The position numbers and the translations under genes are program-made. Below the pieces are notes generated by a model. That model did not search any database and had not been told where the DNA came from. It worked only from the letters and a program-made list of their open reading frames with translations. A stretch of 64,000 nt of DNA from contig NC_057753.1 of NCBI RefSeq assembly GCF_004010195.1, positions 12,294,842 to 12,358,841 of the forward strand, given 5' to 3'. The DNA is from Chiloscyllium plagiosum. Lineage: Eukaryota. Of the stretch, positions 23,428 through 30,215 are shown in pieces. Numbering within the stretch: the first letter of the stretch is position 1; the number at the start of each line of letters is the position of its first letter.

Positions 23428-23737
23428 TATGCTGAGCGCCGACTCAGTGCACAGTAATACACAGCAGAGTCACTTTGTTGTATGGTGGCGATATATAATC
23501 GAGTAATTTTCGCTGCAGAGTCAATATCAGCAGAAATTCTTTCTCCAGCTGCATTTTTGTTATTCTGCTGTCCTGAAGTGTATCTCTGAAGCAGGTATTC
23601 CAGACCCTGTCCTGGGGCATGACGGTACCAGTAAACTGTGTACTGACAGAATCCTGAATATTTACAGCTTAAAGTAATGGTGTCACCTGCAACTGAGGTT
23701 TTGACAGTAGGGCTGTTAGACACCAGGGACGGGGAAT
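23428..23737 (-). CDS. NAR-TCR supporting TCR-delta V segment (no functional own leader; CDR1 cysteine)
   Basis: Acceptor TTCTACAG| in phase 1, then (D)SPSLVSNSPTVKTSVAGDTITLSCKYSGFCQYTVYWYRH...DSAVYYCALSRRSAY with no stops. Extra Cys in CDR1. Phase matches the upstream NAR-TCR J donor. Confidence 0.93.
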
Positions 23738-24227
23738 CTGTAGAATATATTAAAAAAGAGATTTTAGAGTACTGGTTGTGCTGGAAACCTGGAAATCGTG
23801 CAAATAATTCTGTTCTTAAGATATTTTTCTGACTTTAACCCAGCTTTGACATTGTCTTCATCTTAATTAACAAATTAATATCCAAATGTTGCAATTTCTT
23901 GTTGTTGGCAGAGTGCGTTGTTATGACCAGATTCAAACATTAGAATGCATTATAAGAATTCAGAATTTAGACTAAATTTCGAACGGTATTTGGAAATGAA
24001 CTGCAACAGGGAAGGATCGCAGGAGAACGGGCAAAAATTACAGAATGGGAGGAATTGGATTTTTTTGATGTATCTGCATATGCACTACAGATACTGTGGT
24101 GTCTGCTTCAATCGATTTTATTAAAAATCTTCTTCTGCATTTCTGTTAAATGTGCATCTGGGAAAAATAGTTCATGCTCCTCCTCACTCAGATGATCACT
24201 TCGCAGATTTACATAACGGACAATTAC

Positions 24228-24285
24228 CCCCGCCATGTTACATCACTATGGTCAGTAAGATCCAACAGAACGTCATAAAACTCAT
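24228..24285 (-). pseudogene. Disabled leader exon upstream of the supporting V
   Basis: ATG..MSFMTFCWILLTIVM*HGG + G|GTAATT; 58 nt, phase 1, hydrophobic core, in-frame TAA at 24240-24238. Confidence 0.65.
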
Positions 24286-24344
24286 CAGCAGTTATTGACC
24301 TAGATGAACGGTAAGTATCTGTAAGCCACCGTATTCGGGAAGAG

Positions 24345-25225
24345 AATTAAGGAACAGTACTGGCACAGCAGAAGGTCATTCGGTCTGACGTGCTCATACT
24401 GTGTCTTTGAATGAGGAATTCAATGACTACCACTTCCCACTATCTGCCAGCGGCTGACACACTCTTCCTTCTTAGATAATTATGCAATTTCCTCTATAAA
24501 ACCTTGGCCAAGTTTGCCTTTCTTGCAGTCTCAGGAATTACATTATCCATCACAACCATTCAAATTAAATTCCTTTTACTTAAGTCGCCATTGATTCTTT
24601 TATCTATTCTGTTCAATGCGTTTGTTTCAGTTCTCGAGCTTTCCACCAACGGGAGCACTTTGACTTTATCTGCTCTGTCCACACTGTTCATGATTTTGAT
24701 TACCTTCATTAAGTAGGGAGGAAGCGAATGGTTTGGGGACCATACTAAATCTGTTCGACAGGACTTCCATGGTATGGAGGATTTTAGCCGTGAAAAATGT
24801 TTGGGTAGAATGGGTTTGGTGTCACAGGAACGCAGGAGATTGCAGGGCGATCTGACAGACGTCTGTAAGATTGTGAATTGCACGAAGAGAATGGAAAGTA
24901 TGAGGTTTTTTTCCCAGGGTGGAGGGGTGAATTCCTAGGTGAGACAGGTTTAAGGTGCGAGGAGGGAGATCATAGAAGAGGTATGCGAGCCAGGTTTTTC
25001 ACACAAAGAGAGGGGAGTGCCGGGATTGCGTTGCAAGAGGAGACGATGGAAGCAGACACAGTAGCAGATTTCAATAAGCACCTCGACGAATACATTAAAA
25101 GGAAGGGAATGCAAAGATACAGATCATGTGTGCAGACAGTTGTAGTATGGAAGGTAAAAATGTGTCAATGGAAACTCATAGAAGTGAAGGCCCCGATCTT
25201 GTGCTGTATTGTCCTTTGTTCTCGA
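24345..25225. mobile_element. Two CR1-type 3' fragments in opposite orientations
   Basis: Minus: MKVIKIMNSVDRADKVKVLPLVESSRT. Plus: RFFTQREG...TVADFNKHLDEY. Confidence 0.7.
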
Positions 25226-28926: not shown

Positions 28927-28979
28927 CAGCTGTGACGGTCACCATTGTCCCAGATCCATCCACTGCTTCATCATAGTAC
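28927..28979 (-). CDS. NAR-TCR J segment
   Basis: YYDEAVDGSGTMVTVTA + G|GTAAGT donor (IgNAR-type xGxGTxVTV). Preceded by an RSS that reads on the + strand CACAATG (28980-28986)-23 nt-GCAAAAAAC (29010-29018). Confidence 0.9.
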
Positions 28980-29752: not shown

Positions 29753-30215
29753 TGCTATAGCTATACCAAGCTTTACAATAATAGGTGGCAGTGTCTTTAA
29801 CATTCACATCATGAACCTCCAGCGAAAATGTCTTTTCTTCTTTATTCGTCCTCACAACAAACCGTCCTGCTGACAAGATCCGCTCTCGCTTTGTTCCAGT
29901 CTGTGTTTGTTTGAAGAATTCCCCCCGCTGCAAAGCAAATGCGAAGAAGCCACCGTAGAAAACGCAGTTGATGGTAAAAGACTGGCACTCTTCCTTGATG
30001 TCCGCTGGTGGGGACTGTACCACTGACTGACAGAAGGATTCTGGAAATTAAACGGAGAGATATTAGTCCGCACAGTGGAACTCAACCAGAGACAATGCCT
30101 GTATTTTTGTTGTGGATTCGGGAAGCTTTGTACTACTTGTGCACCATGTTGGATTGTTGGATCCGTACTGACCGTGTATATAGGCACACAGTAAAAAGAC
30201 AAGAATAACTCCCAT
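29753..30215 (-). CDS. NAR-TCR V segment (IgNAR-like V); leader exon 30215-30173, V exon 30040-29753
   Basis: Leader MGVILVFLLCAYIH + G|GTCAGT. V exon (E)SFCQSVVQSPPADIKEECQSFTINCVF...FFKQTQTGTKRERILSAGRFVVRTNKEEKTFSLEVHDVNVKDTATYYCKAWYSYS shows the IgNAR-type short FR2/no CDR2, YYCKA and an extra FR1 Cys. Confidence 0.93.

What the first reader, a model, noticed from the sequence alone, without database searches (positions are those of the whole stretch)
24228..24285. Vestigial leader exon shows how the supporting V may have become leaderless
Seen: about 490 nt upstream of the supporting V exon is ATG-MSFMTFCWILLTIVM*HGG-G|GTAATT, a hydrophobic phase-1 exon of typical leader size with a single TAA. 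Supporting V-deltas are described as lacking a leader. Inference: this one retains a leader disabled by one nonsense codon, forcing expression only via the NAR V. An allele without the stop could express the V as a conventional one-domain delta chain with a free CDR1 Cys.
Basis: partly seen in the sequence, partly recalled or inferred. Interest (0 to 1): 0.7.

Follow-up and report, generated by a model that had tools for sequence, protein, structure and literature searches.

The report
Fossil leader of shark supporting V
In front of a shark T-cell-receptor gene segment described as having no signal-peptide exon lies what is likely the long-dead remnant of that exon; it recurs at the same place before most sister genes, each copy broken in its own way, so it is likely an old fossil rather than a gene one recent mutation away from working.

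Summary
The sequence is as described (minus strand, ATG 24285, TAA 24240-24238, G|GTAATT at 24228|24227), 490 nt before the supporting V-delta of an intact NAR-TCR cassette. It is likely a real leader relic. It is the best leader-profile match of 117 ATGs in the 5.2-kb J-V intron. A matching block lies 519-546 nt before the V in most sister copies (10 of 14 supporting-V introns, three subfamilies). It reads hydrophobic in the same frame, with changes skewed to third codon positions (p about 0.04, bounds post hoc). The 'one nonsense codon' story is not supported. 31 of 32 conventional leaders here are 15 codons + 1 nt, and the TAA sits inside GTAACA, a donor-like hexamer right after codon 15, 2 nt out of frame. 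Whether a stop-free allele exists is unresolved. The scan noted a similar relic earlier in another genome (e1-9589472). This is a modest evolutionary footnote on NAR-TCR origin; the statistics are weak to moderate.

The parts
24241..24285 (-). Likely relic leader exon, 15 codons (MSFMTFCWILLTIVM)
   Evidence: Best of 117 ATGs in the J-V intron under a profile of 31 real leaders; positional homologs in 10 of 14 supporting-V introns; third-position skew in codons 8-15
24236..24241 (-). GTAACA: likely remnant of the original splice donor; contains the TAA (24240-24238); 44 nt from the ATG, so 2 nt short of phase 1
24222..24227 (-).
   Evidence: 4.8 bits; GT in register in 2 of 10 copies (window, L091 GTTTTC), GTAA in the window copy only
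23738..24240 (-). Likely former leader-V intron, now the 3' end of the J-V intron
   Evidence: Alignable across subfamilies: window-family profile hits L094 (E 1e-18), L091 (1.6e-8), L010 and L097 (0.002)
24347..24379 (-). Second ATG-led hydrophobic stretch ('element A', MTFCCASTVP*), likely upstream non-coding DNA
   Evidence: Homologous in L091/L094 but no codon skew (0.48/0.54/0.44); not aligned in the third subfamily
23428..23737 (-). Supporting V-delta exon, open, with CDR1 Cys (23648-23646)
   Evidence: 100% identical to the second V of two-V gene model P0002
23269..23427 (-). Three tandem 23-spacer RSS-like units, 60-nt period (23427-23389, 23367-23329, degenerate 23307-23269)
28927..28979 (-). 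NAR-TCR J segment; its donor (28926) splices to the supporting V
   Evidence: joint 23737-28927 in contigs X19 and X20
29753..30040 (-). NAR-type V exon
30173..30215 (-). NAR-TCR leader exon, the working leader of the cassette
   Evidence: joint 30041-30176 in X19 and X20

Best explanation
The stretch is likely the decayed leader exon of the ordinary V gene that became the supporting V-delta: likely a standard 15-codon exon whose splice donor now lies 2 nt out of frame, so that the TAA is likely the middle of the old GTAA donor rather than a late nonsense mutation. Shown: the V is downstream of a NAR V-D-J with its own leader, and NAR J is joined to the V acceptor in contigs of a related organism. 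The block recurs before sister Vs, and no copy examined has ATG, open frame and in-phase donor together. Inferred: once the NAR cassette supplied start, leader and splice donor, the V's own leader was redundant, or harmful because a stand-alone chain would carry an unpaired CDR1 Cys. It then decayed in place and is now skipped as intron. It likely has no present function.
For: (1) Length: 31 of 32 conventional leaders are 15 codons + 1 nt and 28 of 31 donors begin GTAA; the candidate's hydrophobic run ends at codon 15, on GTAACA. (2) Profile of codons 2-14 (ATG and donor left out): 6.9 bits, best of 117 ATGs in the intron (next -7.5), 2nd of 5150 positions, 4th of 2560 ATGs in the window; the top two are leaders of neighbouring V genes. 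(3) Against an 11-member leader family, codon-permutation p is 0.009 (window), 0.009 (L099), 0.037 (L004), 0.07 (L089) and 0.25 (L090); the window copy outscores all 20 real leaders of other families. (4) Best local match of the whole intron at the collinear place in L094, L092, L010 and L091 (shuffle p 0.025-0.075); distance to the acceptor 519-546 nt in 7 copies once inserted repeats are removed. (5) The same frame is the most hydrophobic of three in 9 of 9 copies, e.g. LFWILLCMVP, SFCILLCIMT, CFSVLPCTVV. (6) Codons 8-15: 18 of 37 changes at third positions (p 0.038; 2 of 411 overlapping control windows as high); between subfamilies 0.33/0.23/0.55 against 0.54 for intron; codons 16-19 show no skew (two copies there are repeat DNA).
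Against: The leader family was chosen after the identities were seen, and four families were tried. The V-domain trees do not place supporting Vs with that family (AU p 0.23, neither shown nor rejected). A profile of the block itself hit no real leader in 51 V loci at E <= 30. The codon skew rests on 8 codons with post hoc bounds (p 0.08 for codons 6-15). Hydrophobicity is kept beyond a random-change null only at p 0.04-0.06 in three related copies, and not in five others. The candidate scores well below typical real leaders (leave-one-out median 21.7 bits) and below two decayed-gene leaders in the window (30.0 and 18.9 against 12.6). A frame-breaking loss shared by all copies and a coding skew between subfamilies do not sit easily together. 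No GT survives at the codon-15 site in 8 of 10 copies. The block was not found in L093, L095 or L098.
Confidence: 0.55

Rival explanations
1. No leader: neutral intron DNA shared by duplicated cassettes that happens to read as a hydrophobic ORF in this copy.
For: Such patterns arise at about 0.03 per kb, so about 15% for the whole intron. Within the window's subfamily the block is no better conserved (0.70-0.78) than its flanks (0.65-0.84), and 31 of 411 control windows are as conserved overall. The block profile finds no real leader. Other introns give chance hits up to 14.8 bits with the all-leader matrix.
Against: Rank 1 of 117 ATGs; same-frame hydrophobicity in copies about 54% diverged in intron; third-position skew; end point at the locus-typical exon length.
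Confidence: 0.2
2. One reading: a 19-codon leader with donor G|GTAATT, killed by a C-to-T or similar change at codon 16; a stop-free allele could give a one-V delta chain.
For: 58 nt, phase 1, in frame, donor 4.8 bits. Codon 16 is CAA in L090, L010 and L096. A GT lies in register in L091 and within 1 nt in L090, L092 and L010.
Against: No 58-nt exon among 32 leaders read from the nearest ATG. GTAA at this site only in the window copy; mean score of the others -6.9, near background. No coding skew in codons 16-19. The TAA is shared with L089 and L094, so likely old. All 7 stop-free copies lack the ATG at codon 1.
Confidence: 0.17
3. The conserved core is a dead V 3' end with recombination heptamer, or a cis element for germline transcription, and not a leader.
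For: In another frame the core resembles Y-Y/F-C followed by ACAGTG. The heptamer-plus-5 score ranks first in the intron for L090, L094 and L096, best of 12 offsets. 6 of 42 weak hits of the block profile fall on V ends or heptamers (E 2.8-25).
Against: No nonamer. The positions that would be the heptamer's CAC are among the most changed in the block. No decayed V exon upstream (best E 1, elsewhere). The variable positions would be second codon positions in that frame, which is stopped in 6 of 9 copies.
Confidence: 0.08

Closest known systems
NAR-TCR supporting TCR-delta V of nurse shark and elephant shark (Criscitiello 2006, not held; features read in passages of PMC1845163)
   Same: NAR leader-V-D-J upstream, J spliced to a second V with a CDR1 Cys and no working leader.
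   Different: The passages say the supporting V lacks the leader peptide; they do not mention a recognisable relic. Here a likely relic is traced in 10 of 14 copies.
Split leader exon (L-part 1) of conventional shark TCR alpha/delta V genes
   Same: ATG, 15 hydrophobic codons, GTAA-type hexamer at the end, a few hundred nt before the V (real introns here 81-859 nt).
   Different: Donor 2 nt out of frame; profile score well below most real leaders; no copy intact.
Mammalian TCR-mu supporting V (passages of PMC2275272, PMC3457774)
   Same: Independently evolved two-V chain whose second V came from an ordinary V gene.
   Different: The opossum joined V is drawn with a leader that lost its intron (figure legend, PMC2275272). 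That it is also expressed on its own as a short isoform is recalled, from no call. The shark V shows only a dead leader.

Membership tests
NAR-TCR cassette | NAR-type V with leader, D(s) and J upstream of a second V | tested here: met
   two-V gene model P0002 100% identical
NAR-TCR cassette | J spliced in frame to the supporting V | tested here: met
   Joint 23737-28927 in contigs of 2 of 4 runs laid (related organism C, two studies, RNA status guessed)
NAR-TCR cassette | Supporting V with CDR1 Cys and no working leader | tested here: met
   SGFCQY; no intact leader in 10 of 10 copies holding the block
Functional TCR V leader exon | ATG plus open frame up to a phase-1 GT donor | tested here: not met
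   Stop before the phase-1 site; the site after codon 15 is phase 2
Functional TCR V leader exon | Hydrophobic core of signal-peptide strength | tested here: met
   Best 8-mer hydropathy 2.71; real leaders 2.11-4.11
Functional TCR V leader exon | SignalP-positive leader plus V with a cleavage site | not testable with these tools
   No signal-peptide predictor offered
Functional TCR V leader exon | Transcribed from its own promoter and spliced to V | tested here: inconclusive
   No joint listed from 24228 or 24242, but contigs cannot show absence and the raw-read runs barely cover the locus
Relic (pseudo) leader exon | Positional homologs in paralogs with independent lesions | tested here: met
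Relic (pseudo) leader exon | Sequence homology to real leaders, or coding signature | tested here: inconclusive
   For: (p 0.009-0.08, partly post hoc). Against:
Recombination signal / V 3' end | CAC heptamer, 12/23 spacer, ACAAAAACC-like nonamer | tested here: not met
   No nonamer; CAC positions variable

The most novel reading that the evidence does not exclude
Supporting V-deltas kept working leaders while their subfamilies diverged and lost them repeatedly afterwards. Early NAR-TCR cassettes would then have been dual-use, giving both two-V and ordinary one-V delta chains, and some living cartilaginous fish may still carry a supporting V with an intact leader. The between-subfamily pattern (first and second positions 0.33 and 0.23, third 0.55, intron 0.54) is what this predicts.
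Probability: 0.22. Interest if true: 0.6.

Novelty: new variant of a known kind. Interest (0 to 1): 0.33.

Why it matters
A relic leader is direct sequence evidence that the supporting V was an ordinary stand-alone V captured behind the NAR cassette, and it marks where its old promoter and leader lay. If the coding skew holds in more species, it would date leader loss to after the supporting Vs diversified and make the dual-use stage testable. It has no shown effect on the living receptor.

Tried and rejected
Polymorphism at 24238-24240: unresolved. X1 matches 23640-24700 with no difference but may be the source sample. X6 differs at 2 places in 23771-24483 that the table does not show. Organism B runs X15 and X16 cover the exon and list no indel in it, but 107 substitution rows were not shown. 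RNA: no RNA holder listed. Raw reads X21 and X22 laid only on repeats or not at all. X19 and X20 have no cover at 24011-24247 and no joint from the candidate, which contigs cannot turn into absence. Proteins with leader plus supporting V: the near-length search returned nothing. All 22 longer hits carry a NAR-type V or fragment in front. P0037 and the C. milii models (P0132, P0171-P0178) begin with what looks like translated acceptor-side intron (shared CNLxPAG/TG), so the apparent leader of P0132 is not counted. Decayed V upstream of the block: none. Element A as the true leader: no codon skew. A-B tandem duplication: low alignment scores, not pursued. First tree had two mis-cut rows and was rebuilt. 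The order of lesions along the tree was not worked out. Papers: Criscitiello 2006 and 2010, Ott 2021 and Deiss 2019 are not held and may bear on novelty.

Full report
Setting. The window lies in a shark TCR alpha/delta locus (G000:C44). On the minus strand there is a NAR-TCR cassette: leader 30215-30173, NAR V 30040-29753, D segments, J ending at 28927, a 5189-nt intron, and a supporting V 23737-23428 with a CDR1 Cys. The V is 100% identical to the second V of the two-V model P0002, which its source names Chiloscyllium plagiosum. Contigs of a related organism from two studies, guessed to be RNA, join 28927 to 23737 and the NAR leader to the NAR V (2 of 4 runs laid). Passages of PMC1845163 state that elephant and nurse shark supporting Vs lack the leader and carry the CDR1 Cys.

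Observation. A pattern this loose arises at 0.028 per kb in simulated sequence, so it is modestly beyond chance next to a V. The size is not typical. Of 51 conventional V loci, 36 gave a leader prediction; after dropping 4 doubtful ones, 31 of 32 are 15 codons + 1 nt, and 28 of 31 donors begin GTAA. The candidate's hydrophobic run is 15 codons long, and the TAA lies within GTAACA (24241-24236), a hexamer identical to the real donor of L034, 44 nt from the ATG instead of 46.

Is it a leader? A profile of codons 2-14 of 31 real leaders ranks it first of 117 ATGs in the intron and fourth of 2560 in the window. The likeness is confined to one 11-member family: codon-permutation p is 0.009 for the window copy, and 0.009, 0.037, 0.07 and 0.25 for its four closest sister copies; three other families give nothing under 0.17. 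That family was chosen after seeing the identities, and V-domain trees do not group supporting Vs with it (AU p 0.23).

Sister copies. All supporting-type Vs fetched with enough flank lie behind NAR V or J pieces. Of 14 introns, 10 hold the block, L097 holds its first half, and L093, L095 and L098 gave no match. Four copies align with the window at about 70% over the whole region. In the two other subfamilies the block is the best local match at the collinear place in L094, L092, L010 and L091 (p 0.025-0.075); L096 was placed by multiple alignment only. The downstream intron is homologous. Without inserted repeats the distance to the acceptor is 519-546 nt in 7 copies; L089 has a deletion, L099 ends with its contig, and L092 carries another repeat. 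The same frame is the most hydrophobic in 9 of 9 copies tested, with L099 left out as a near-twin of L004. In codons 8-15, 18 of 37 changes are at third positions (p 0.038; p 0.08 for codons 6-15). Between subfamilies the three positions differ at 0.33, 0.23 and 0.55 against 0.54 in intron. Retention of hydrophobicity beats a random-change null only at p 0.04-0.06 in three related copies, and not in five others. A profile of the block hit no real leader and weakly hit six V ends.

Lesions. The ATG is present in 2 of 10 copies (window, L089). It is ATA in three, ATC in two and ACC in one, and is not recognisable in L091 and L094, which have TGA at codon 8. Codons 1-7 carry indels in four copies. 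TAA stands at codon 16 in 3 of 10. None of the 7 stop-free copies keeps the ATG at codon 1; L090 has an inner ATG, but its GT is out of phase. In L091 and L094 a repeat of about 255-265 nt is inserted at codon 16-17.

Mechanism. Shown: the cassette supplies start, leader and donor from upstream, and no copy has a complete own leader. Inferred: the block is the V's former leader exon, most likely ending after codon 15, dead for a long time and skipped as intron. Loss may have been favoured because a one-V chain would expose the CDR1 Cys; that is inference. One tension remains: a frame break common to all copies would leave no coding skew between subfamilies, so either the skew is partly chance or the leaders died separately.

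Literature. Searches. Seen as passages: PMC1845163, PMC12227049, PMC5931798, PMC7615758, PMC2275272, PMC3457774, PMC11372145 and PMC3964593 (its one held supplement had no hit). None of these passages mentions a leader relic. The four main shark NAR-TCR and TCR-delta papers were not held, so absence from print is not established. The scan's own unreviewed note e1-9589472 reports a fossil leader with a retrotransposon at its junction in another genome; it led me to map the repeat boundary and is not independent support.

Verdict. Likely a real relic, ordinary in kind, mildly informative on NAR-TCR origin; the one-codon story is not supported. Interest 0.33.

Noticed in passing
window 23427-23269 (-); also L003, L007, L009, L012: Three tandem 23-spacer RSS-like units at a 60-nt period behind the supporting V in all five copies printed; use of the second would add about 20 codons to the junction or offer a spare signal.
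   Followed up: partly
window 5466-5421 (-) and about 40452 (-): Leader exons, the first intact, in front of badly decayed V pseudogenes (V remnants at 5338-5064 and 40211-40014); they served as positive controls.
   Followed up: partly
L091 (G000:C44 about 13003300-13003560) and L094: Interspersed repeat of about 255-265 nt inserted at codon 16-17 of the relic, shared by both copies.
   Followed up: yes
L091, 852 nt before the V acceptor: Open 15-codon hydrophobic stretch MAFLCSVMGLFVILF without a donor, homologous to window 24379.
   Followed up: partly
L089 (G000:C44:12494000-12503900): This copy has lost about 400 nt including the V acceptor, and its V is frameshifted; several other cassettes (L090, L092-L096) are broken in the NAR V or the supporting V.
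   Followed up: no
P0132 (C. milii, UniRef A0A4W3HYK7): Gene model of a supporting-type V without the CDR1 Cys and with a hydrophobic N-terminus; likely translated intron, genomic DNA not seen.
   Followed up: partly
window 24392-24385 (-): CRE-like CACGTCAG about 100 nt before the relic ATG; real leaders L033 and L042 have TGACGTCA upstream, but the motif is not kept in sister copies.
   Followed up: partly
L061, L065, L069, L072, L048, L077, L080 (G000:C44 14.2-14.4 Mb): IgH-like V segments among the TCR Vs; the label TAILV for such segments is from a passage of PMC12227049.
   Followed up: no
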